A stretch of 64,000 nucleotides of DNA, taken from contig JARVJZ010000002.1 of the NCBI GenBank assembly GCA_029775855.1, positions 269,599 to 333,598 on the forward strand. Direction: 5' to 3'. The notes beneath the pieces are model-generated. The model was given only the letters and a program-made list of their open reading frames with translations, did no database searches and was not told the DNA's origin. This DNA comes from Nitrososphaeria archaeon (GTDB lineage Archaea > Thermoproteota > Nitrososphaeria > Nitrososphaerales > JAAOZN01). Shown here piece by piece: positions 1 through 56,166 of the stretch. How positions within the stretch are numbered: position 1 is the first letter of the stretch; each line of letters opens with the position of its first letter. Made by a program: the position numbers and the translations under genes.

Positions 1-197
1 TCAACGCGATCCGCTAAGTCATAAGCCAAAATAGACTCGACAGAAGTTGAAGGATCAAACCCTTTTGCTCTAGCCTTTAAAGCCACTTCATTTAGCTTCT
101 TAAATTCAATTAACAACTGCTCCTGAAATTTCTTTTGCCTATCAGACATGGCGCCTCTAACATATTCTTTATTGAGCACATCTTCTTGTGACATCAT
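1..197 (-). CDS. polC: DNA polymerase D large subunit (DP2), 5' fragment running off the window
   Basis: Manual translation MMSQEDV...EFKKLNEVALKARAKGFDPSTSVESILAYDLADRV matches the DP2 N-terminal AR.KG.DP...VE...A.D.A.RV pattern; not in the ORF track. Confidence 0.85.
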   Translation of the reverse strand, partial: MMSQEDVLNKEYVRGAMSDRQKKFQEQLLIEFKKLNEVALKARAKGFDPSTSVESILAYDLADRV

Positions 198-203
198 GTG
201 ATA

Positions 204-965
204 TCACAATGCCTTAGCAGATTCGGCAGCGTTCACAATTTTGCTTAAAAGTTTCCTACCATCCTTTGACTCAAGCAGAGTGCCAATAACTAAGATATCG
301 GCTCCGCATTTAACTAACTCTTCAGCAATTTCAGGCTTTGTTATTCCACCGCCAACGATTAGTACGCCGTCGTAGACTTTTCTAACAGCTTGAACCATTT
401 GTGATGATACATGTGATATCACACCTGAACCAGCTTCAAGATATAGAAAGCGCATACCCAAATATTGACTAGCTAAAGCGTACATGGCTGCTATTTCTGG
501 CTTTGAATTCGGAATACCTCTAGCTTTACCTATAAACCCAGCTGCGCCTCCTTCGCCAACTATAAGATAAGCCATCGGAATAGCTTCTAATCCGTACTTT
601 TTAACTAGTAACGCGCCTAAAGCTTGAGCTTCGGTTATAAAGTAGGTATTCTCAGAGTTCAGGAGCGAGCTAAATAAAATAGCATCTGCACTAGGCACGA
701 CACTATTAACATTACTTGGAAAGATTATAACAGGCTTTGCTACAGCTTTCTTTATCGCTCTTACGACCTTATCTAATTCTAGCTGATCCATTGCTGTAGA
801 GCCGCCTACAAGTATCGCAGCCACGCCAGCTTTGTCTGCTTCCTTAGCCATCTTAGCAGCTTCTTGTTCGGTAAGACCTTCTGAGTCTATTAATCCGAAG
901 CAGATAGCACCTCTCTTCTTAATTTCGTTTTTAATAAGTTGCTCAACACTATACTTATTGGTCAC
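204..965 (-). CDS. Geranylgeranylglyceryl phosphate synthase
   Basis: LIDS..., ILVGGS, FPSN, LYLEAGSG and VGGGI motifs of the GGGPS/PcrB TIM barrel. Confidence 0.93.
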   Translation of the reverse strand: MTNKYSVEQLIKNEIKKRGAICFGLIDSEGLTEQEAAKMAKEADKAGVAAILVGGSTAMDQLELDKVVRAIKKAVAKPVIIFPSNVNSVVPSADAILFSSLLNSENTYFITEAQALGALLVKKYGLEAIPMAYLIVGEGGAAGFIGKARGIPNSKPEIAAMYALASQYLGMRFLYLEAGSGVISHVSSQMVQAVRKVYDGVLIVGGGITKPEIAEELVKCGADILVIGTLLESKDGRKLLSKIVNAAESAKAL

Positions 966-1209
966 TTTTGATCTTCCCCGCCATAAATTGATCTACAAAT
1001 TCGTTGTAGATGTCTATTACTTCTTTTCGCCCAGTAAATTCATAGTCGCGCGTTAGCCTACAGTTCCCGCAGGAGATTAAAGCAAGGTGTTCACCTTTGA
1101 GTTTAACCCTGACGCCTGATACTCCACAGTTTGGGCAGGTAAATACTTTAGGCAGAGTTCTTCTTACTACCCTAATCACTTTTCTTCTTCGTCTACCCAA
1201 GTTGACCAC
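955..1209 (-). CDS. elf1: Transcription elongation factor Elf1-like zinc ribbon
   Basis: Basic N-terminus GRRRRK, LPKVFTCPNC, CGNC, ID(I)YNEFVD. Confidence 0.9.
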   Translation of the reverse strand: MVNLGRRRRKVIRVVRRTLPKVFTCPNCGVSGVRVKLKGEHLALISCGNCRLTRDYEFTGRKEVIDIYNEFVDQFMAGKIKSDQ

Positions 1210-1267
1210 TTAGTATAGGGCTTGCTATTTAAAAAGGTCACTTTTCCACTTGCAAACCATATCAATA

Positions 1268-1294
1268 AATATGTTTTGGTTAACGAAACATATT
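1268..1294. promoter_or_regulatory. Inverted repeat in the divergent promoter between elf1 and the origin-adjacent genes
   Basis: AATATGTTT-N9-AAACATATT, perfect 9-bp arms. Confidence 0.45.
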
Positions 1295-1366
1295 ATTTCA
1301 GCAGTTTTCCTAAATGGAAAGGGGATGAGGAAAAAGAATAATTATACCATTCTGTATTAATGGGTT

Positions 1367-1768
1367 GTGCTTAAAATAATGCAACAAGAAAATAAGCTAC
1401 TACTCAGCCTAATTGAAGGTTCTACTCTCACAAATGCCCAAGTAGACACATTACTATGTGAAATAGAAGGTAAAGGTGCAGCAAAACAATTGAGAGAAAG
1501 GGCTGCCATGAGAGACAAAGAAAACATTACACTAGGCGCTTACTCAAGAACAAGAAAACAAGCATACATGAGAATCAGGAAGGTTCTAAAAACAGTACTT
1601 TTACTATCGTATTTGGGCATCTTTTCACAAGACGGATTAAACACATTAGTAAAAGCAGCAGAATTAATAAGCAGAGTCAAAACAGCTAATCTAACTGATG
1701 AAGACATAATAAAATTAAACAAACTTATAGACGAAACATTAAGCAATCTAATTGTGATATCACAGTAA
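1367..1768 (+). CDS. Hypothetical protein, possible HTH-like DNA-binding protein, origin-adjacent
   Basis: 133 aa helical ORF; LTNAQVDTL and ITLGAYSRTRKQA resemble an HTH; same orientation as the next ORF, 30 nt apart. Confidence 0.65.
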   Translation: MLKIMQQENKLLLSLIEGSTLTNAQVDTLLCEIEGKGAAKQLRERAAMRDKENITLGAYSRTRKQAYMRIRKVLKTVLLLSYLGIFSQDGLNTLVKAAELISRVKTANLTDEDIIKLNKLIDETLSNLIVISQ

Positions 1769-1798
1769 AGGTCATATACAAGCATCACATATCACAAA

Positions 1799-2332
1799 AT
1801 GATGTTAGAACTAATAATAGCAAGCATAGCTTTACTATTAGCTATCGTCGCCCTATTTATCAACATAAAACGAAACCACAAGCAAAATAACGCAAACTAT
1901 GATGTGGTCTTGGCCCTTTCCGAGGAATATTCGCGAAGAATGAATAAGTTGGAAACTAGACTGGTTGATCTTCAAGTTAGATTGGATATTATAGAAACTA
2001 GGATAGAGAAACCCACTCTTCATAGTGATGTAGAAGAAGTAAAGAAGATTAAAGGTTTCAATAATGTGATATCACAAAAGCCGCAAATTGATATCACAAA
2101 GTTTTCCAAGGGATTAAGTGAGTTTGAGTTGGCAGTACTTAGATGTGTTGCTGAAGGTGCGAAGACACCGAGTGAGGTTAAGGCTGTTGTTGGACATACC
2201 AGAGAGCATGTTGCTAGAGCGCTTAAAGATCTTTATGAGGAAGGTTTTCTTTTTAGGCAGGGTGGTAGACCATTTATTTATTCATTGTCTGATAAGGGTA
2301 GAGCTGTTCTTAGTGGGGATTCTCGTGCTTAA
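1799..2332 (+). CDS. Membrane-anchored coiled-coil winged-helix protein
   Basis: N-terminal hydrophobic helix (LIIASIALLLAIVALFINI), heptads (MNKLETRLVDLQVRLDIIETRI), C-terminal wHTH (TPSEVKAVVGHTREHVARALKDLYEEGFL...PFIYSLSDKG). Confidence 0.8.
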   Translation: MMLELIIASIALLLAIVALFINIKRNHKQNNANYDVVLALSEEYSRRMNKLETRLVDLQVRLDIIETRIEKPTLHSDVEEVKKIKGFNNVISQKPQIDITKFSKGLSEFELAVLRCVAEGAKTPSEVKAVVGHTREHVARALKDLYEEGFLFRQGGRPFIYSLSDKGRAVLSGDSRA

Positions 2333-2695
2333 TGTGGTCTTTCTGTAAATATATCCTGTTCCTATTCTTACTCTTTTTAGCATTCTTTGGTCGACTAATC
2401 TGTTTAGGTAGGTGGATAATGTTGTGAGCTTTATAGGTTGTTGATATTTGCTTTCGTAGGCTTCTTGTAAGTTTGCTGTTGTGAAGTTAGAGGCTGGAAA
2501 TTCTTCATCTATTAATGCGCATACTTTTGAGAAGATTGTGTCTACTTCAGTTTTTTCCTCTTCCCTTTCGCCGCCTAGAAACTCATATACTTCTATCAAT
2601 TTATGCATCTTCTCTTTCGATAGAGGGCCTTCTATTGTAAGAGAATATTTACTACCCTCCTCGTCTGTAAATTCAATCTTCATCCTTTTTGGCAT
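2282..2695 (-). CDS. Hypothetical winged-helix protein divergent from cdc6 across oriC
   Basis: N-terminal beta hairpin (MKIEFTDEEGSKYSLTIEG) plus wHTH-like C-terminus (FTTANLQEAYE...IKLTTLSTYLNRLV...GYIY); ATG at 2695 preferred. Confidence 0.75.
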   Translation of the reverse strand: MPKRMKIEFTDEEGSKYSLTIEGPLSKEKMHKLIEVYEFLGGEREEEKTEVDTIFSKVCALIDEEFPASNFTTANLQEAYESKYQQPIKLTTLSTYLNRLVDQRMLKRVRIGTGYIYRKTTLSTRIPTKNSSTLIRQ

Positions 2696-2865
2696 ATTTT
2701 GCCACAATAAGATATCAAGTTCAACTTATACATTGAAGGTGTGAAAAAGTGAACAAGTTTGTCAAACCATCATTTACTGAGCCAAATGTAATGTTATTAA
2801 CTACTCTATTACATTATTCACTATTTTACAATTATCAAACTTTTCGCTAACAATCAAGAATATGA

Positions 2866-2887
2866 TTTGCAGTGGAAATGGAGGGGT
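2866..2887 (+). promoter_or_regulatory. ORB element 1
   Basis: TTTGCAGTGGAAATGGAGGGGT. Confidence 0.8.
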
Positions 2888-2929
2888 GTGCCAAAACACC
2901 TTTTAACTATTAAATAGGGCATATTTTTG

Positions 2930-2951
2930 GCTCCAGTGGAAATAAAGGGGT
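2930..2951 (+). promoter_or_regulatory. ORB element 2
   Basis: GCTCCAGTGGAAATAAAGGGGT, near-perfect ORB consensus with G-string. Confidence 0.9.
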
Positions 2952-3003
2952 GCCTGTGAACGGTAAGTGCAAGTATATTCACAAATACTAGATAAGAAGG
3001 GGT

Positions 3004-3024
3004 ACCCCTTTGTTTCAGCTGGAG
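3004..3024 (-). promoter_or_regulatory. ORB element 3 (inverted)
   Basis: Reverse complement CTCCAGCTGAAACAAAGGGGT. Confidence 0.85.
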
Positions 3025-3171
3025 ATTTCAATTAGGCTTCTTCTTGCTCTTTGTGTGACCGAATTGACATAACAGTCATTATTTTTGCCCAAAACAGAGA
3101 TATAATTTAGATAAAGAAACAAGTACGGGATAGACCAAACAATTCCTCATAATTAACTATTTAGGGGATAC

Positions 3172-3192
3172 TTCCTATGGAAGCGATGGGGT
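3172..3192 (+). promoter_or_regulatory. Degenerate ORB abutting the cdc6 start
   Basis: TTCCTATGGAAGCGATGGGGT. Confidence 0.55.
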
Positions 3193-4410
3193 GTGCGGCT
3201 AAACTTGGGTAGTGAAGCAGATCAAAAAAAGATAATTAACTCAATATTTACCAAAGCAGCTGAAGGGTCAAGAATAATAAAGGATGCTGAACCCTTAAGA
3301 CCTGATTATGTGCCACCTAAACTTCTTTTCAGAGATGAACAAATTACTGCTGTAGCTCAAATCGTTGCACCTATTCTTAGGAAGCAGCGCTGCTCTAATG
3401 TGCTACTTTACGGTAAAACAGGTACTGGGAAGACTGCTACGGCTCGTCTGGTTCTTAATGAGCTTAGGTTGAAGGCTCAAGAGTTTAAGATTCCTGTTTG
3501 TTTATGTTACACTAATTGTAGACTTGCTGGGACTGAGTACAGGGTTGTTCTAGATCTTGCGGAAAGTGTTGGTGTTAAGATACCCTTCACAGGTTTATCC
3601 TTAGGTGAAGCGTATAGTAGGGTTGCTGCTCAAATATCAGATAATAACTTAAATTTTCTAGTAGTTTTGGATGAGATTGATTATTTGGCTAAAAATTCAA
3701 CAGGTAACCTTCTCTATGAGTTAACACGCTCACATGAGAAGTTAACCCCTGGTGGTATATCGTTAATCGGGATCTCCAATGATCTTCGTTTTAAGGAGAT
3801 GCTTGATCCGCGTGTTTTGAGCAGTTTAGGTGAAGAAGAGATGGTTTTTCCACCTTATTCAGTCGAAGAGCTTAGACTAATTTTAAAGGAGCGTGTTAAG
3901 CTAGCTTTCAATGATGGCTGTATAACTGAGGGTGCAGTAAACTTATGTGCAGCATTAGCCGGTTCTGAACACGGTGATGCAAGAAGAGCTGTCGATTTAC
4001 TTAGGGTGTCTGCTGAAGTCGCTGAGCGTGAAGGAAAGGCTAGGGTAGAAGAACATCATATTAAGATTGCTCTGCAGAAGATGGAGCAAGACCGATTGAT
4101 AGAAGCTTTAAGAGTTTTACCGCTTCAAGCTAAGTTGATTCTCTTATCAGTCATAAAATCAGAAGACTCCTCCTCTACAGGCTCTATTTACCAAACATAC
4201 CTTAGATTAAGTTCTAGAGTTGGTGTTGAAACACTCACTGCAAGAAGGGTGAGCGGTATACTTTCCGAATTAGATATGCAGGGTTTAATTTCGGCTAATG
4301 TTTTAAGCAAGGGTAGGTATGGTAGATCTAAACGGGTCTCTTTACTTGTATCTAAGCATCTTGTTCTAGATGTTTTAACTCAAGATCCGATTATTGCTGC
4401 TGTAATTTAG
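3193..4410 (+). CDS. cdc6: Orc1/Cdc6 replication initiator
   Basis: L.PDYVP..L.FRD, Walker A GKTGTGKT, Walker B VVLDEID, GDARRA, C-terminal wH with GRYGR; start may be TTG at 3205. Confidence 0.97.
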   Translation: MRLNLGSEADQKKIINSIFTKAAEGSRIIKDAEPLRPDYVPPKLLFRDEQITAVAQIVAPILRKQRCSNVLLYGKTGTGKTATARLVLNELRLKAQEFKIPVCLCYTNCRLAGTEYRVVLDLAESVGVKIPFTGLSLGEAYSRVAAQISDNNLNFLVVLDEIDYLAKNSTGNLLYELTRSHEKLTPGGISLIGISNDLRFKEMLDPRVLSSLGEEEMVFPPYSVEELRLILKERVKLAFNDGCITEGAVNLCAALAGSEHGDARRAVDLLRVSAEVAEREGKARVEEHHIKIALQKMEQDRLIEALRVLPLQAKLILLSVIKSEDSSSTGSIYQTYLRLSSRVGVETLTARRVSGILSELDMQGLISANVLSKGRYGRSKRVSLLVSKHLVLDVLTQDPIIAAVI

Positions 4411-5845
4411 TGAAGTCTAAGGTAATGACCTGTAAGGTTGATAGGTCTACTATGGGTAGAATTGCTGGTGTAGGGTTTATACCCATGTCAAGTTGATAAC
4501 TTGTCTGGCTCTGCCATGTGCCTGAGTTAATTAGTAAGCATCCACGGTAGCGCTCAGTGTCGAGTATATGTATATGTCCTGTGTGAAATATGTCTGGTAT
4601 CTGGTCTATAACCAACAAGTCTTCATAAGTTGGTAAGATCGGTGTCCTTCTGCCGTAAATTGGAGCTAAATGTCTTGCCTTTAATAGGTTCTTCATAGCT
4701 AAAGCAGGGCGCTCCACTTTCAAACCCGGTGTTGTCGCCACAACATCTTCTAAACTTTTACCGTGATACATCAAAACTTTAACTCCTTCTAGCTCAAGCC
4801 ATACTGGATTGCTTACTAAAACTACATTCGAAAGTTCGCTTAGAGAAGACGCGTACTCTTTAGGTATAGGCGGCTGTGGGATGGATTGCCTAACTGGCTC
4901 GTGATTGCCTGGGCTGATGAAGATTTGTATGTTCTGTGGTATGTTTTTTAAAAGAGCAGCCACTTCATTGAATTGTTGTTTAACATCCGCTGTAATAAGT
5001 TCTTTTTCTTGGTTAGGGTAAACACCAACGCCATCTATGATATCACCACAAATTAGAAGGTAGCGTATTCGTAATGCGATTTCATTGTCTTTTTTGTTAA
5101 GCCAATCAATAAAGGTTTTAAATGCTTGCTTTAAAAAATATTTGTTCCCAATATGTAGATCTGATGTTAGAACCGCGTATAATCTCTTTTTGGAGAGGTT
5201 TGGCACATGTTCAGGTATGTCTGGAAGCGTTATAGAGTCAATTGTGTAAATTTTCTTTCTGATGGGGGTTATTGAAGCGACTACTAGCGCATCTAATGGC
5301 GCTTCTTGTATATTTTTTATTATCGAAACTTCAAATGTTGTGGCTTCTATTTTGTTAGTCAGATCTTCTAAGATTATGGTTGCAGATCCTTTTTTGATTG
5401 TCTTCGAGTAGATTAGACCAGCTACCTTCATAGGTAATTTACTATCTTCTAATCTTGTGATACTTTCTATGTTTCCACTATCTCGCCGCTTTTTTGCCAA
5501 GGCTAACAATTTTTGGTATCTGCTTAGGAAGAGTTGTCTGAAGCCTTCTACTCCGTCAGCGGCCTTCACTTTTTCATAATTTTGTAAAACTTTAAAGTTT
5601 AGAGGTTCGTTTAGTTCTGTTTCATCTATCTTCATTTCGGTATCCTTTTTTGTGGTGAAGCGTTGTATGTCTTCAGCCTTTATCGTTCTGTCCCCTTCTT
5701 CGCCTTTTAATTTAATTACTTCTTCTATAAGCGCACCCACATTAGTTTCTTTTGACATCTGCAGCAGCAGGTTGAATGCTTTAGGCTCAATTTGGTATCC
5801 CTTCGCAACGACTTCCCGTATGAGTTGTGCTGCGTTGTCGGACAT
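4391..5845 (-). CDS. polB: DNA polymerase D small subunit (DP1)
   Basis: OB fold plus calcineurin-like motifs SDLHIG, GDIIDG.G.YP.Q, PGNHE, YHG, RHLAP, GHIH, NSGTWQ. Confidence 0.96.
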   Translation of the reverse strand: MSDNAAQLIREVVAKGYQIEPKAFNLLLQMSKETNVGALIEEVIKLKGEEGDRTIKAEDIQRFTTKKDTEMKIDETELNEPLNFKVLQNYEKVKAADGVEGFRQLFLSRYQKLLALAKKRRDSGNIESITRLEDSKLPMKVAGLIYSKTIKKGSATIILEDLTNKIEATTFEVSIIKNIQEAPLDALVVASITPIRKKIYTIDSITLPDIPEHVPNLSKKRLYAVLTSDLHIGNKYFLKQAFKTFIDWLNKKDNEIALRIRYLLICGDIIDGVGVYPNQEKELITADVKQQFNEVAALLKNIPQNIQIFISPGNHEPVRQSIPQPPIPKEYASSLSELSNVVLVSNPVWLELEGVKVLMYHGKSLEDVVATTPGLKVERPALAMKNLLKARHLAPIYGRRTPILPTYEDLLVIDQIPDIFHTGHIHILDTERYRGCLLINSGTWQSQTSYQLDMGINPTPAILPIVDLSTLQVITLDFTKLQQQ

Positions 5846-53593: not shown

Positions 53594-54730
53594 TTAGGGC
53601 TTCTTCCAGCTTAGTGGTGAAACATCCACTAGGCTCTTTAGAACATTATTTTTGAAGTTGTTGGCTACTTCAGTGAAACCTATGCTCTGATAATCTTCTA
53701 TAAGTCCTTTATCAGCTAATTCGGTCATCTTGGGGTCAAGGGGGATTACGCCGAGAAAGGGTATGTTAAATTTCTTCGCAGCCTTTTCACCCTTAGGCTC
53801 GCCAAATAGGTTGATTTTGCCGCCGCAGTGTGGGCAGATCAAGTAACCCATGTTTTCTATGAGCCCAAGCACTGGCACCTTTATGGATCTAGCCATATTA
53901 ACTGCTTTAGCAACTATCATTAACGCCAAGTCTTGTGGTGTGGAGACGACGACAACGCCATCTATAGGAATAGATTGGTAAACTGTAAGGGGTGCATCGC
54001 TTGTGCCTGGTGGTAGGTCGATTATTAAGAAGTGTAAATCTCCCCAGTCTACTTCAGAGTATAGCTGCTTTATCACATTACTTACTATTGGCCCCCTCCA
54101 GACTACAGCTTGCTCTGGGTCGTCTAAGAGTAGGTTTACTGAGATGGCTTTTATTCCGCTTTTTGTTGTAGGTGGTAGTATTCCGTTTTGGCTTATTCTG
54201 GGTCTGTCGGTTAGGTTAAAGAGCTTAGCTATACTTGGACCAGTGACATCTGCGTCTAATACACCTACTTCGTAGCCCATTCTTCTGAGTTCGGTTGCAA
54301 GTAGGGCTGAGACAGATGATTTACCTACTCCGCCTTTGCCTGAAACTACAGCTATAATGTGTGCTATGTTCTTCTTATCTAGCTTCTCTATACCCGTGGT
54401 GGCTGCTTTTTTACCGAACTTCTGCTGAAGTTTCTCCTTGAGCCTATCTAGCTCCTCTTTGCTCATTGATGTAGTCTCAACCGAAACTGCTTTAACACCA
54501 TTTAGCTTCTTTACATTCTTCTCGACATCGCTTTTGATGGTGTTGGCTAGAGGGCAGCTCGGCACAGTAAGAGCAATCAGTATCTTGACGACACCATCCT
54601 CTACTTTAATGTCTCTTACCATTCCTAGCTCAACTATGTTTAAGCCTATCTCAGGGTCAACTACTTCAGAAAGCGCTTCCAAGATCTTACTCTTAGTTAA
54701 CATTGAGATTTCATTGTAAAAAGGGGTCAT
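53594..54730 (-). CDS. mrp: Mrp/ApbC/NBP35 Fe-S carrier ATPase with N-terminal DUF59
   Basis: V.DPEI..NIVELG, CP, GKGGVGKS, WRGP, DLPPGTSD, ENM...CPHC. Confidence 0.94.
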   Translation of the reverse strand: MTPFYNEISMLTKSKILEALSEVVDPEIGLNIVELGMVRDIKVEDGVVKILIALTVPSCPLANTIKSDVEKNVKKLNGVKAVSVETTSMSKEELDRLKEKLQQKFGKKAATTGIEKLDKKNIAHIIAVVSGKGGVGKSSVSALLATELRRMGYEVGVLDADVTGPSIAKLFNLTDRPRISQNGILPPTTKSGIKAISVNLLLDDPEQAVVWRGPIVSNVIKQLYSEVDWGDLHFLIIDLPPGTSDAPLTVYQSIPIDGVVVVSTPQDLALMIVAKAVNMARSIKVPVLGLIENMGYLICPHCGGKINLFGEPKGEKAAKKFNIPFLGVIPLDPKMTELADKGLIEDYQSIGFTEVANNFKNNVLKSLVDVSPLSWKKP

Positions 54731-54828: not shown

Positions 54829-56166
54829 TTGATTATAAAATCTGTAGCTACAGCCTTCCTCACTTATCGTGGCAAGATTCTAATCTTAAAGCGAAGCGAT
54901 AAAGTTGGAACCTATCGTGGTGCTTGGGCTGGTGTGAGCGGGTATGTCGAGCAGGGTGAGGAGCCCTTAGATACCGCGCTTAAAGAAGTAGTGGAGGAAA
55001 CGGGGTTAAAACTTGATAGAGGCGCGCTTTTGAAAAGAGGTGCCCCTCTACCAGCATACGATAAAGTAAAGGATGTGCTTTGGCTTGTCCACCCCTTCCT
55101 CTTTAAAGCGCCAACAAACAAAATAAGACTAGATTGGGAGCATGAAACCTATGCTTGGATTAAACCAGAAGCAGTCAAGCATTACAGCACTGTGCCACGC
55201 TTAGCAGATGCTTTGGAGCGTGTTAAACCACCAGCCTTCAAGCTAGATAAGACGCTTAGCAGCTACCTTAAGGAAATAAAACAAGACTCAACACACGGGT
55301 CAAGCTGGCTGGCAGCTAGAGCTGCAAGAATTCTCCAAGTAGCCTCAGATTCATCTACATACAGTAGCGTCGACCAATATGTCCAATTTCTCAAGTTTTA
55401 CGCTAAGATGTTAGCTGAAGCAAGGCCAAGTATGCTTGCCATAGAGAACACTATAATATATCTGCTTGGAGCTCTCATGGAAGGATACAGCAAGACTCCA
55501 GACTTAACTACTCTTAAAGACCTTTTGAGAAGAGCTGTTAGTGAGTGGCTTAAGATTAAAGAAGTAGCGTTTAAGAAGTGCGTTGAAAACACCTCAAACC
55601 TATTTGAAGAGGAATGTAAAGTGATAACGCACAGCTACAGCAGCACCGTCTTAGAAGCATTAAAACAAGCCTCTTCAAAGAATAGAGGCATCACAGTGTA
55701 TGTATCCGAATCAAGACCACGCTACGAAGGCAGAATTATGGCTAAAAAGCTAGCAGAAAGCAGATGCGATGTCACATTAATCACCGACGCATCAATAGGA
55801 CACTTCATTAAAGATGCAGATGTAGCTGTGGTAGGAGCAGATACAATTTCAGCCGACGGCTCAATAATTAATAAAGTGGGGACATATCTGCTTGCCTTAT
55901 CAGCCTATAAGGCTAATGTGCCCTTCTATGTCGCTGCTGAAACACTTAAGATTGGTGTAAGAACCCTCTTCGCTAAACCAGTATTAGAGGAGCATTCTCC
56001 TACCGAAGTTTTTAAAGGTTCTCCTAGTCTTAAAGCAAGAAACATATACTTTGATGTGACGCCAGCCGATTTGGTCACAAAGATCATCTGTGAAGATGGT
56101 TTAATCGAAGTCTCTAAGGCTTATGAATACGCTGTAAAAGCACTCAGATTGTCTTATTTCCCATAG
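54829..56166 (+). CDS. NUDIX domain fused to an aIF-2B/sugar-phosphate isomerase-like domain
   Basis: LKRS..VGTY.G.W..VSG..E...EETG, DWEH; then HGS, RPSM, THSYSSTV, ESRP..EG, GAD, NKVGT, FDVTP. Confidence 0.88.
   Translation: MIIKSVATAFLTYRGKILILKRSDKVGTYRGAWAGVSGYVEQGEEPLDTALKEVVEETGLKLDRGALLKRGAPLPAYDKVKDVLWLVHPFLFKAPTNKIRLDWEHETYAWIKPEAVKHYSTVPRLADALERVKPPAFKLDKTLSSYLKEIKQDSTHGSSWLAARAARILQVASDSSTYSSVDQYVQFLKFYAKMLAEARPSMLAIENTIIYLLGALMEGYSKTPDLTTLKDLLRRAVSEWLKIKEVAFKKCVENTSNLFEEECKVITHSYSSTVLEALKQASSKNRGITVYVSESRPRYEGRIMAKKLAESRCDVTLITDASIGHFIKDADVAVVGADTISADGSIINKVGTYLLALSAYKANVPFYVAAETLKIGVRTLFAKPVLEEHSPTEVFKGSPSLKARNIYFDVTPADLVTKIICEDGLIEVSKAYEYAVKALRLSYFP

What the first reader, a model, noticed from the sequence alone, without database searches (positions are those of the whole stretch)
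187..2098. Centromere-like cluster of a 12-bp palindrome (TGTGATATCACA) beside oriC
Seen: four perfect copies (197, 412, 1753, 2065) and near copies at 187 (9/12) and 2087 (10/12, 22 bp or about two helical turns from 2065), plus stacked half-sites at 400-405 and 1784-1796. All lie within about 2.7 kb of the ORBs, and I found no perfect copy in the other 62 kb by eye. A given 12-mer is expected far less than once per 64 kb. The sites are mostly inside ORFs of unrelated proteins and show up as VISH, VISQ and DITK peptides; one bridges the GGGPS stop and the DP2 start. That placement argues against ordinary operators. Known: ori-proximal intragenic palindromes are the hallmark of parS, ram (RacA) and SegB-type sites, and the motif is neither an ORB nor bacterial parS. 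Inference: cis-acting sites of an undescribed chromosome anchoring/segregation system.
Basis: partly seen in the sequence, partly recalled or inferred. Interest (0 to 1): 0.9.

Follow-up and report, generated by a model that had tools for sequence, protein, structure and literature searches.

The report
Conserved TGTGA boxes beside archaeal origin
A 12-base palindrome found nowhere else in this archaeal genome sits in four double copies next to the replication origin, most likely as docking sites for a neighbouring membrane-anchored DNA-binding protein, a pairing not yet described in archaea.

Summary
TGTGATATCACA occurs four times in the window (0 expected) and nowhere else in the 1.5-Mb genome. 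Each copy has a degenerate partner 10-32 bp away.

The sites lie in a gene block, DP2-GGGPS-Elf1-ORF133-ORF177-ORF141-ORBs-Cdc6-DP1, conserved across Nitrososphaerales and other orders of the class. The boxes recur at the same places in relatives:
- the DP2 start codon
- GGGPS codons G-V-I/T-S-H, with synonymous constraint
- either side of a TATA-like box before ORF177
- the DNA coding ORF177's disordered linker

Best candidate binder is ORF177, which has an N-terminal membrane helix, a coiled coil, a flexible linker and a winged helix. Its invariant recognition helix R-E-x-x-x-R-x-x-K aligns with CRP/Vfr, whose half-site is also TGTGA (recalled).

My reading: these are ORF177 boxes that autoregulate its gene and act on PolD DP2. 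Binding would also hold the origin flank at the membrane.

The sites are real, origin-proximal and conserved, but two of four places are a promoter and a start codon, no partition motor is adjacent, and binding is untested.

No RNA data were available, and the dimer prediction tool was unreachable. I found no paper describing this motif.

The parts
187..208 (.). Double box a: TGTGACATCA + TGTGATATCACA. It spans the GGGPS stop (the TGA inside TGTGA on the minus strand) and the DP2 start; the last A of the palindrome is the A of the ATG.
   Evidence: The 12-mer is fully conserved in 4 of 4 genus members. A motif at or inside the DP2 start recurs in other families and in another order.
400..423 (.). 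Double box b: two abutting 12-mers inside GGGPS, at codons G-V-I-S-H-V-S-S-Q after the EAGSG motif.
   Evidence: In 11 loci with G-V-[IT]-S-H, Val is GTG in 11 of 11 (1.9 expected), Ser is TCA in 11 of 11 (2.9 expected) and Gly is GGT in 9 of 11 (4.1 expected).
1752..1778 (+). Box c1 (1753-1764), then the ORF133 stop and a TATA-like CATATA. This is the presumed ORF177 core promoter.
   Evidence: It is the longest fully conserved run (27 nt) among 4 genus members, which share only 50.5% identical columns over 2.57 kb.
1784..1797 (+). Box c2: ATCACATATCACAA half-sites between the TATA-like box and the ORF177 ATG (1799).
   Evidence: In 19 order-wide loci, TGTGA/TCACA pentamers number 50 against 4.8 expected in the 100 bp before the ORF177 start.
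2065..2098 (+). Double box d: TGTGATATCACA and ATTGATATCACA, 22 bp apart, inside ORF177 in the DNA coding residues 89-100 of its disordered linker.
   Evidence: AF2 pLDDT is below 50 for residues 75-103. The order-wide pentamer peak at +200..+300 is 23 against 4.8 expected.
1799..2332 (+). ORF177, the candidate binder: N-terminal membrane helix (5-23), coiled coil to about residue 70, disordered linker, C-terminal winged helix (108-172).
   Evidence: Pfam HTH_27 23.1 bits against a cut-off of 22.2, plus weak TrmB and HVO_A0261_N matches. AF2 model. R135, E136, H137, R140 and K143 are invariant. The helix aligns to Vfr/CRP. A TM-like N-terminus is present in 14 of 15 homologues.
1367..1768 (+). 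ORF133: a lineage-specific helical protein whose N-terminal part resembles LuxR / sigma region 4 / EnfR HTH domains. It is an alternative binder.
   Evidence: No Pfam match. AF2 pLDDT 90.4. VIA-align Z 6.0-6.4 to HTH domains, which is middling. Atlas clusters are Nitrososphaerota hypotheticals.
2282..2707 (-). ORF141: a winged-helix protein (weak BlaI/CopY-type match), divergent from Cdc6 across the origin.
   Evidence: It was found in 20 of 20 relatives' loci.
3..197 (-). 5' end of the PolD large subunit DP2 gene; it runs off the window.
   Evidence: Pfam PolC_DP2_N 27.8 bits against a cut-off of 24.3.
204..965 (-). GGGPS (PcrB family).
   Evidence: Pfam PcrB, E 1.1e-54.
955..1209 (-). Elf1-like zinc ribbon.
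   Evidence: Pfam Zn_ribbon_Elf1, E 1e-14.
2868..3026 (.). Three ORB-like elements (2868-2888, 2931-2951, and 3002-3026 inverted); this is oriC.
   Evidence: Read. The exact core CCAGTGGAAA occurs once in the genome, here. The same element stands before Cdc6 in relatives.
3193..4410 (+). Orc1/Cdc6 initiator.
   Evidence: Pfam Cdc6_C and Cdc6_lid.
4391..5845 (-). PolD small subunit DP1.
   Evidence: Pfam DNA_pol_E_B and Metallophos.

Best explanation
The palindromes are the DNA boxes of the locally encoded protein ORF177. ORF177 is a single-pass, N-out/C-in membrane protein. Its cytoplasmic part is a coiled coil (a likely dimer), then a flexible linker of about 30 residues, then a winged helix. 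Each winged helix reads a TGTGA(Y) half-site with a CRP-like recognition helix, R-E-x-x-x-R-x-x-K.

Two or more dimers occupy each double box. The boxes on either side of the TATA-like element and over the start of ORF177 give autoregulation. The boxes over the DP2 start codon and about 215 bp upstream inside GGGPS act on expression of the PolD catalytic subunit, possibly through a loop between the two.

Because the protein is membrane-anchored, occupancy would hold the 2 kb to the left of oriC at the membrane.

Shown here: the uniqueness of the sites, their pairing, their conservation, DNA-level selection, the predicted protein architecture, and the helix similarity. Inferred: that ORF177 is the binder, the sign of the regulation, and the tethering.
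For: Uniqueness and pairing: 4 of 4 genome copies lie here, and each is paired.

Link to the locus in relatives: 37 perfect TGTGAYRTCACA sites were found in 41 genomes, and I count 24 of them within about 4 kb of the ORF177 homologue, where roughly 0.2 would be expected. The reversed control pattern gave 5. Perfect sites lie inside the block in 12 of 20 fetched loci.

DNA-level selection: the two most notable conserved runs in the genus are the 27-nt box-plus-TATA block and the 12-mer at the DP2 start. Synonymous codons are fixed in GGGPS. The motif is kept inside a non-conserved, disordered linker.

Order-wide half-site profile over 19 loci: 50 against 4.8 expected in the 100 bp before ORF177, and 17 of 19 loci have 2 or more half-sites in the 120 bp before it. 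There are further peaks at the linker, the DP2 start and inside GGGPS. The same pile-up, 8-13 fold, is seen in 64 named loci, mostly titled Nitrosopumilus or Nitrosarchaeum.

Binder: R135, E136, R140 and K143 are invariant. The profile aligns 'sREHtaRllKkL' to Vfr 'SREMVGRVLKSL' (E 0.011), and the NCBIfam CRP model matches residues 125-161 (E 0.0018). Of 13 weak HTH_Crp_2 places in this genome, only ORF177 carries RE...R..K. That CRP reads TGTGA through these residues is recalled knowledge, not a result of any call.

Membrane anchor: the KD19 hydropathy score is 1.96-3.36 in 14 of 15 homologues, with no K/R before the helix and 1-5 after it.

Family spread: single copy in 99 of 121 genomes of the class.
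Against: No binding experiment exists, and no protein-DNA model could be made with these tools. The matches to CRP/Vfr are weak and below the curated cut-offs. Seven other places in this genome score higher on HTH_Crp_2 than ORF177, and one ties with it.

The half-site spacing is N2, not CRP's N6, so a rigid CRP-like dimer cannot be assumed. In relatives the spacing varies from N2 to N10.

Two other local proteins, ORF133 and ORF141, are probably DNA-binding too. No obvious TATA box precedes DP2 in this genus. GTGAT 5-6 nt before the DP2 start could partly be a Shine-Dalgarno element.

Boxes b and d lie inside genes, which is unusual for plain operators. An anchor with no sensor domain is an odd design for a protein that is only a regulator.

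In f13 (54 genomes) the perfect 12-mer is never next to ORF177: 0 of the 20 genomes with a match. Related genomes are not independent samples, so the counts overstate the support.
Confidence: 0.5

Rival explanations
1. One reading: the main selected function is chromosome anchoring or segregation. ORF177 bound to its boxes tethers the oriC flank to the membrane, as a Jacob-type replicon attachment. This would work like RicO/ricS in Staphylococcus aureus or RacA/ram in Bacillus. Autoregulation would be a by-product, as in plasmid centromeres that overlap the par promoter.
For: The sites occur only beside oriC. They lie inside genes and are kept by synonymous constraint. The candidate binder has a membrane anchor, a coiled coil and a DNA-binding domain, but no sensor domain. 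RicO has the same three elements (abstract and section 8 of the bioRxiv preprint 10.64898/2026.03.06.710092).

ORF177 stays beside ORF141, the origin and Cdc6 in 18 of 20 loci of the order; the other two are cut by the end of the stretch. The same holds in 11 of 15 loci from other orders. Loci titled Nitrosopumilus carry arrays of 7-9 TGTGA repeats, more than simple autoregulation needs. The top Foldseek match of the ORF177 model is AspA, the centromere-binding protein of plasmid pNOB8, though it is tied with MarR-family proteins. A 2024 review states that how archaeal chromosomes are segregated is not understood (passages of PMC7617429).
Against: Two of the four places are a promoter and a start codon. 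No ParA/SegA or ParB gene is adjacent: the ParA-like hits are at C4:83245, C4:84042 and window ~54242, and the ParB_N hits at C6:140529 and C2:211981. All sites lie within 1.9 kb on one side of the origin, whereas ricS sites span about 700 kb. In most families only one or two perfect sites remain. In f26, where Cdc6 lies 6-8 kb away, no perfect site was found in any of 17 genomes, so it could not be tested whether the sites follow the origin or the gene.
Confidence: 0.27
2. The boxes are protein-binding sites, but the binder is ORF133 (LuxR / sigma-4 / EnfR-like HTH), ORF141 (BlaI/CopY-like winged helix), or a protein encoded elsewhere. ORF177 would then be only a target gene.
For: ORF133 residues 18-88 align to HTH domains of EsrB, DesR, sigma-28 and EnfR with Z 6.0-6.4; the EnfR match has rmsd 1.4 A over 52 residues at 25% identity. 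EnfR is a dimer that binds a pseudo-palindrome (abstract of PMC10570040). Box c1 overlaps the ORF133 stop codon in many lineages. All three genes travel together.
Against: Z values near 6 are in the range expected for unrelated helical proteins, according to the tool's own note. A second motif, TGTGAAC/TGTTAAC, lies between ORF141 and the ORBs. It changes between families together with helices of ORF141 and ORF133, so at least one of those proteins probably has that other target. The TGTGA half-site and the ORF177 helix are both invariant across these same families. Only ORF177 has the RE...R..K signature.
Confidence: 0.13
3. The repeats are not protein-binding DNA sites. They would instead arise from protein-coding constraint, a Shine-Dalgarno element, RNA hairpins, a restriction site (GATATC), or remnants of a mobile element.
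For: GTGAT 5-6 nt before the DP2 start resembles part of a Shine-Dalgarno sequence; L040 has GGTGAT there. GTGAT lies within 16 nt before the first ATG of 25 of 904 long ORFs. The residues G-V-I/T-S-H follow a conserved EAGSG motif in GGGPS.
Against: Synonymous positions are fixed far beyond local codon usage. The motif persists in a disordered, non-conserved linker and in a non-coding promoter. The central two bases vary as Y-R without keeping self-complementarity, which a hairpin would need. GATATC itself is common, at 368 copies in the genome. Gene order is conserved across the class, which excludes a recent mobile element.
Confidence: 0.05

Closest known systems
CRP/Vfr (CRP-FNR family) and its site TGTGA-N6-TCACA
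   Same: The recognition helix pattern R-E-x-x-x-R-x-x-K aligns. The half-site TGTGA and its inverted arrangement are the same; the CRP site and its contacts are recalled, not taken from a call.
   Different: ORF177 has no cyclic-nucleotide-binding domain. Its N-terminus is a membrane helix plus coiled coil. The spacer is 2 bp, not 6. The matches fall below the curated cut-offs.
RicO/ricS of Staphylococcus aureus (bioRxiv 10.64898/2026.03.06.710092; abstract and section 8 read)
   Same: One polypeptide combines a sequence-specific DNA-binding domain, a coiled coil and a membrane-binding element, and its specific sites lie only in the origin-proximal region.
   Different: It is bacterial and the domain order is reversed: DNA-binding domain at the N-terminus and an amphipathic helix at the C-terminus. 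Nine sites spread over about 700 kb, against four double sites in 1.9 kb here. No homology was tested.
AspA, centromere-binding winged-helix protein of Sulfolobus plasmid pNOB8 (PDB 5k5q, 4rs8)
   Same: It is the top Foldseek match of the ORF177 model (E 1.6e-4). It is an archaeal winged helix that binds a palindrome beside its own gene (recalled).
   Different: The match is tied with dozens of MarR-family regulators. AspA has no membrane anchor and is encoded with parB and parA, which are not adjacent here.
SegAB of Sulfolobus (passages of review PMC7617429)
   Same: A site-specific DNA-binding protein of an archaeal chromosome that has been proposed to act in segregation.
   Different: SegB works with the ParA-like ATPase SegA, encoded next to it. 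No such ATPase is in this block. No SegB sequence was available for comparison.
Plasmid type II centromere parC/ParR (recalled)
   Same: Repeats that bracket the core promoter of the operon encoding their own binding protein, so that one array serves as both centromere and operator.
   Different: That system has an actin-like motor, ParM, and is carried on a plasmid. The binder is a ribbon-helix-helix protein.
MarR/TrmB-type archaeal winged-helix regulators
   Same: The fold and Pfam matches agree: HTH_27 passes its cut-off, 52 PDB chains match at E <= 0.001, and the target is a palindromic operator at the regulator's own promoter.
   Different: The dimerisation helices that flank a MarR winged helix are absent. 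ORF177 has a membrane anchor, sites inside neighbouring genes, and a fixed position beside oriC across a whole class.

Membership tests
ParABS (parS/ParB) | A ParB protein (ParB_N domain plus HTH) encoded beside its sites | tested here: not met
   No ParB_N domain in the block. The two ParB_N matches in the genome are at C6:140529 and C2:211981, 58 kb or more away.
ParABS (parS/ParB) | A ParA ATPase partner next to the DNA-binding gene | tested here: not met
   AAA_31 matches lie only at C4:83245, C4:84042 and C2:323840 (window ~54242).
SegAB | A SegA (ParA-like) gene adjacent to the site-binding partner | tested here: not met
SegAB | Sequence homology of the binder to SegB | not tested
CRP-FNR family | C-terminal HTH whose recognition helix has the R-E-x-x-x-R pattern | tested here: inconclusive
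   The pattern is present and invariant and aligns to Vfr and CRP. Scores of 17-19 bits are below the cut-offs (27 bits for HTH_Crp_2, 266 for the CRP equivalog).
CRP-FNR family | N-terminal cyclic-nucleotide-binding beta-barrel | tested here: not met
   No such Pfam match. AF2 shows a single long helix over residues 2-70.
CRP-FNR family | A 22-bp site, TGTGA-N6-TCACA | tested here: not met
   The half-sites match but the spacer is 2 bp. The CRP consensus is recalled.
MarR/TrmB-like winged-helix regulators | Winged helix-turn-helix fold | tested here: met
   HTH_27 scores 23.1 bits against a cut-off of 22.2. AF2 gives a wHTH over residues 108-172 with pLDDT above 90. 52 PDB chains match at E <= 0.001.
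MarR/TrmB-like winged-helix regulators | A dimer interface formed by helices directly flanking the winged helix | tested here: not met
   The winged helix is preceded by a disordered linker (residues 75-103) and a distant coiled coil.
Origin-membrane anchors of the RicO / RacA kind (functional class, not a homology family) | A DNA-binding domain, a coiled coil and a membrane or polar-anchor element in one protein | tested here: met
   By prediction only.
Origin-membrane anchors of the RicO / RacA kind (functional class, not a homology family) | Specific sites confined to the origin-proximal region | tested here: met
Origin-membrane anchors of the RicO / RacA kind (functional class, not a homology family) | Loss of the protein mislocalises origins or causes segregation defects | not testable with these tools
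   This needs genetics or microscopy in a cultivated relative.

The most novel reading that the evidence does not exclude
ORF177 and its TGTGAY/RTCACA boxes form an archaeal origin-to-membrane tether. A dedicated, sensor-less, membrane-anchored winged-helix protein would clamp the flank of oriC to the cell membrane, as a Jacob-type replicon attachment. It would be conserved throughout Nitrososphaeria, including the globally abundant ammonia oxidisers, and in MAGs titled Bathyarchaeota. The same boxes would couple expression of the PolD catalytic subunit to that attachment.
Probability: 0.27. Interest if true: 0.9.

Novelty: new variant of a known kind. Interest (0 to 1): 0.72.

Why it matters
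How archaea without a known partition machine place and separate their chromosomes is an open question. So is how they control the cell cycle. A 2024 review says the mechanism is not understood even for Sulfolobus (PMC7617429, passages).

This locus offers a concrete, testable handle in Nitrososphaeria, the class that includes the ammonia-oxidising archaea. It has three parts:
- a single-copy, class-wide gene fixed next to oriC and Cdc6
- a protein design that joins membrane and DNA
- a short DNA box, unique in the genome, that also sits on the start of the replicative polymerase gene

Whichever of regulation or tethering is the selected role, this would be the first described origin-linked membrane-anchored DNA-binding system in archaea. 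My four literature searches on the topic found none, and a search for the motif string found no paper.

The finding also shows DNA-level selection shaping the N-terminus of DP2, a loop of GGGPS and the linker of the binder itself.

Tried and rejected
The steps below led nowhere or were blocked.

- **Complex prediction** (ORF177 homodimer, alignment A2, 2 copies) was unreachable five times. No result exists, so dimerisation rests only on the coiled-coil prediction.
- **RNA evidence:** no RNA holder was listed. All holders of more than half the words are DNA runs of hot-spring metagenomes. No TSS or expression data could be obtained, and read laying was not used.
- **ORF133 fold:** Foldseek of the model against the PDB gave no match at E <= 0.001. 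A profile search of PDB sequences gave nothing meaningful; the best hit was interferon gamma at E 0.34.
- **NCBIfam** gave no family for ORF133 or ORF141 above cut-off.
- **Planned control:** I wanted to compare a GGGPS gene that is not next to DP2. No GGGPS was found with this query in 4 genomes of family f24, so the control could not be made.
- **16S rRNA 3' end:** a conserved primer-like pattern did not find it in the genome. The anti-Shine-Dalgarno sequence is therefore recalled, not read.
- **The search for related loci:** A2 was rejected as too diverse. The window protein alone found no relative. The smaller alignment A3 worked.
- **Literature:** the motif string occurs in 0 papers. Searches combining Thaumarchaeota / origin / palindrome / cdc6, Nitrosopumilus / segregation / membrane / winged helix, AOA / transcription factor / motif / PolD and archaea / membrane-anchored / winged helix / origin / tether listed nothing on this system. 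I judged these four from titles and abstract starts. PMC12141716 was checked with find and mentions no Thaumarchaeota.
- **Explanations rejected:** a mobile element (synteny holds across the class), an RNA hairpin (the centre varies without complementarity), and GATATC restriction-site avoidance or enrichment (368 copies genome-wide).
- **Co-variation test:** I tried to use co-variation between motif 2 and the ORF141/ORF133 helices to assign binders. The families that switch may form one clade, which would make it a single event and inconclusive.

Full report
**Observation.** The 12-mer TGTGATATCACA is present at 197, 412, 1753 and 2065, and at none of 100 shuffles. I laid the whole genome (1.507 Mb in 6 contigs; the window is C2:269599-333598). 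It has exactly four perfect copies, all here, plus three one-mismatch copies elsewhere, which is about the chance number. Each perfect copy has a degenerate partner at 10, 12, 32 or 22 bp. Only three places in the genome pair two sites that each have at most 2 degenerate mismatches, and all three are here (window 187, 400 and 2065); the partner of site 1753 has 3 mismatches.

**Surroundings.** The genes are as follows:
- DP2 5' end, 3-197 (-)
- GGGPS/PcrB, 204-965 (-)
- Elf1-like zinc ribbon, 955-1209 (-)
- ORF133, 1367-1768 (+), no Pfam match
- ORF177, 1799-2332 (+)
- ORF141, 2282-2707 (-), weak BlaI/CopY-type winged helix
- three ORB-like elements, 2868-3026
- Orc1/Cdc6, 3193-4410 (+)
- PolD DP1, 4391-5845 (-)

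The exact ORB core occurs once in the genome, here. The cumulative GC skew of the contig peaks within about 10 kb, which is weak support for an origin. A homologue's source name places the lineage in Nitrososphaerales. The DNA is held by hot-spring metagenome runs.

**The sites are conserved, at matching places.**
- ORF177 homologues were found in 35 of 41 genomes of the order.
- The degenerate pattern TGTGAYRTCACA hits 37 places in these 41 genomes. By my count 24 lie within about 4 kb of the ORF177 homologue: 3 of 3, 3 of 4 and 5 of 6 sites in the three congeners, and the sole or one of two copies in nine genomes of eight other families. The reversed control pattern gave 5 hits.
- In 20 fetched loci the gene order DP2-GGGPS-Elf1-ORF133-ORF177-ORF141-Cdc6-DP1 is kept. 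GGGPS and ORF141 are present in 20 of 20 and Cdc6 in 18 of 20; the other two loci are cut by the end of the stretch. 12 of 20 loci carry at least one perfect site inside the block.
- Among the four genus members, only 50.5% of 2,572 aligned columns are identical. Even so, the longest invariant run is the 27 nt at 1752-1778, which holds box c1, the ORF133 stop and a TATA-like CATATA. The 12-mer at the DP2 start is also invariant.

**Selection acts on the DNA, not the proteins.**
- In GGGPS the box writes G-V-I/T-S-H after the EAGSG motif. In 11 loci with these residues, Val is GTG in 11 of 11 (1.9 expected from local codon usage), Ser is TCA in 11 of 11 (2.9 expected) and Gly is GGT in 9 of 11 (4.1 expected).
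- Box d lies in DNA coding residues 89-100 of ORF177. AlphaFold2 predicts this region as disordered (pLDDT below 50 for residues 75-103), and the flanking protein sequence is not conserved while the boxes are.
- The DP2 N-terminus, M-(M/I)-S-Q, is written by the motif in several families. In one genome of another order (G047) the ATG lies inside TGTGATGTCACA even though GGGPS is not there.

**Order-wide half-site profile.** Over 19 loci, TGTGA/TCACA pentamers peak in these places:
- the 100 bp before the ORF177 start: 50 against 4.8 expected, and 17 of 19 loci have two or more in the last 120 bp
- -200..-100: 22 against 4.8
- +200..+300, the linker: 23 against 4.8
- the DP2 start: 20 against 4.7
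- inside GGGPS: 27 against 9.6

In 64 named loci, mostly titled Nitrosopumilus or Nitrosarchaeum, the same pile-up before ORF177 is 8-13 fold. Arrays of 7-9 TGTGA(T) repeats are visible. In that family the perfect 12-mer is not linked to the locus: 0 of 20 genomes with a match, out of 54 searched. These genomes are related, so the numbers describe a pattern and are not independent trials.

**Who binds.** ORF177 is the best candidate.
- AlphaFold2 (15-sequence alignment, mean pLDDT 78) gives one long helix over residues 2-70, a disordered linker and a winged helix over residues 108-172.
- The first ~20 residues are strongly hydrophobic in 14 of 15 homologues, with no K/R before and 1-5 after. 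This fits an N-out, C-in anchor with almost no external part. The fifteenth homologue was cut short by my choice of start codon.
- R135, E136, H137, R140 and K143 are invariant.
- A profile search of PDB sequences aligns this helix to Vfr (E 0.011), and NCBIfam gives the CRP model on residues 125-161 (E 0.0018). Both are below the cut-offs.
- From textbook knowledge, not from a call, CRP reads TGTGA with exactly R-E-x-x-x-R.
- HTH_Crp_2 matches 13 places in this genome weakly, and seven of them score higher than ORF177 (one ties). Only ORF177 has RE...R..K.
- The spacer here is 2 bp, and 2-10 bp in relatives. A rigid CRP-type dimer is therefore unlikely; winged helices on flexible tethers would fit.

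ORF133 (AF2 pLDDT 90) resembles LuxR / sigma-4 / EnfR HTH domains at Z 6.0-6.4, which the tool itself calls middling. ORF141 is another winged helix. Either could be the binder instead.

**A second motif.** TGTGAAC lies between ORF141 and the ORBs and is replaced by TGTTAAC in some families. It probably belongs to ORF141 or ORF133.

**Mechanism.** I commit to the following.
1. ORF177 dimers occupy the double boxes.
2. At its own gene the boxes sit either side of the TATA-like element and over the start. This is a standard archaeal layout for autoregulation.
3. At DP2 the boxes cover the start codon, with a second pair about 215 bp upstream. This would allow a loop or a roadblock that tunes the PolD catalytic subunit separately from Elf1 and GGGPS.
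4. Because the protein is anchored, the bound DNA, 0.8-2.7 kb from the ORBs, is held at the membrane.

Points for the tether:
- The protein has no sensor domain.
- Some sites lie inside genes.
- The gene is single-copy in 99 of 121 genomes of the class.
- It stays next to ORF141 and Cdc6 in 11 of 15 loci from other orders, and also in four records titled Bathyarchaeota or Bathyarchaeia (L074, L102, L103, L138). Three of these four carry a perfect box before ORF177.
- RicO of S. aureus is a functional parallel.
- The AspA centromere-binding protein is the top fold match, though tied with MarR proteins.

Points against the tether:
- Two of the four places are a promoter and a start codon.
- No ParA/SegA or ParB gene is nearby.
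- The sites cover a narrow span on one side of the origin.
- Most families keep only one or two perfect sites.

**Comparison and novelty.**
- It works like a palindromic operator set of a winged-helix regulator and, possibly, like RicO/ricS or parC/ParR.
- It is not a member of ParABS, SegAB or CRP-FNR, because defining features were tested and not met (see Membership tests).
- Source annotations call the family hypothetical or a generic MarR/ArsR/HxlR regulator.
- The motif string occurs in no paper of the library. Four topic searches listed nothing on such a system.
- I rate it a new variant of a known kind, with a 0.27 chance that it is an archaeal origin-membrane tether.

**Limits.**
- There is no experiment, no RNA data and no protein-DNA model.
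- Counts across relatives are not independent.
- The CRP contact residues, the parS/ram/AspA/ParR facts and the anti-Shine-Dalgarno sequence are recalled.

Noticed in passing
window 2740-2755, 2955-2961, 2978-2984; relatives L021-L040: A second conserved motif lies between the ORF141 start and the ORBs: TGTGAA-n-GTGAAC, with inverted GTTCACA copies. It is enriched in the ORF141-Cdc6 spacer of 12 loci. In 6 loci (L025, L026, L036, L037, L039, L040) it is replaced by TGTTAAC, in step with a change in the ORF141 helix from KLST.STYL to KLS[VIL].STYL. It may be an ORF141 operator or an accessory origin site.
   Followed up: partly
window 1367-1768 (+): ORF133 is a confidently folded (pLDDT 90) protein with no Pfam family, restricted to Nitrososphaerota. 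Its residues 18-88 look like a LuxR / sigma region 4 / EnfR-type HTH, and it has a C-terminal helical hairpin.
   Followed up: partly
window 1-5845 and loci L021-L058, L060-L139: The block (DP2)-(GGGPS)-Elf1-(ORF133)-ORF177-ORF141-oriC-Cdc6-DP1 is kept across the order, in other orders of the class, and in records titled Bathyarchaeota. It is an unusually stable origin neighbourhood that joins both PolD subunits, the initiator and three small DNA-binding proteins.
   Followed up: partly
window 955-975: The Elf1 stop and the GGGPS start overlap by 11 nt. A 14-nt run at 962-975 is invariant in the four genus members, the second-longest such run in the region.
   Followed up: no
window 195-208 and DP2 starts in L022-L058: The DP2 start codon lies inside or directly after the motif in many lineages, so the first residues of DP2, M-(M/I)-S-Q, are dictated by the DNA box. 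GTGAT 5-6 nt before the start may also serve as a weak Shine-Dalgarno element.
   Followed up: partly
G073 (a 4.3-Mb genome of family f13): This genome has 10 copies of the degenerate 12-mer, against 3 for the control pattern. They are scattered over three contigs and none is near its ORF177 homologue. The genome is far larger than its relatives.
   Followed up: no
window 5036-5047 and 55765-55776: Two 2-mismatch copies, TATGATATCACC (inside DP1) and TGCGATGTCACA. Both are unpaired, and the number is what chance would give.
   Followed up: yes
window ~54242-54361 (-): A weak ParA/MinD-type P-loop match (AAA_31, 26 bits) lies in a 383-aa open frame, about 52 kb from the boxes.
   Followed up: no
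L084 (record titled Candidatus Nitrosothermus koennekii), about 3420-3470: The DNA coding the ORF177 linker carries four TCACA boxes in 50 bp. The 'boxes inside the linker' feature therefore recurs in a distant family.
   Followed up: partly
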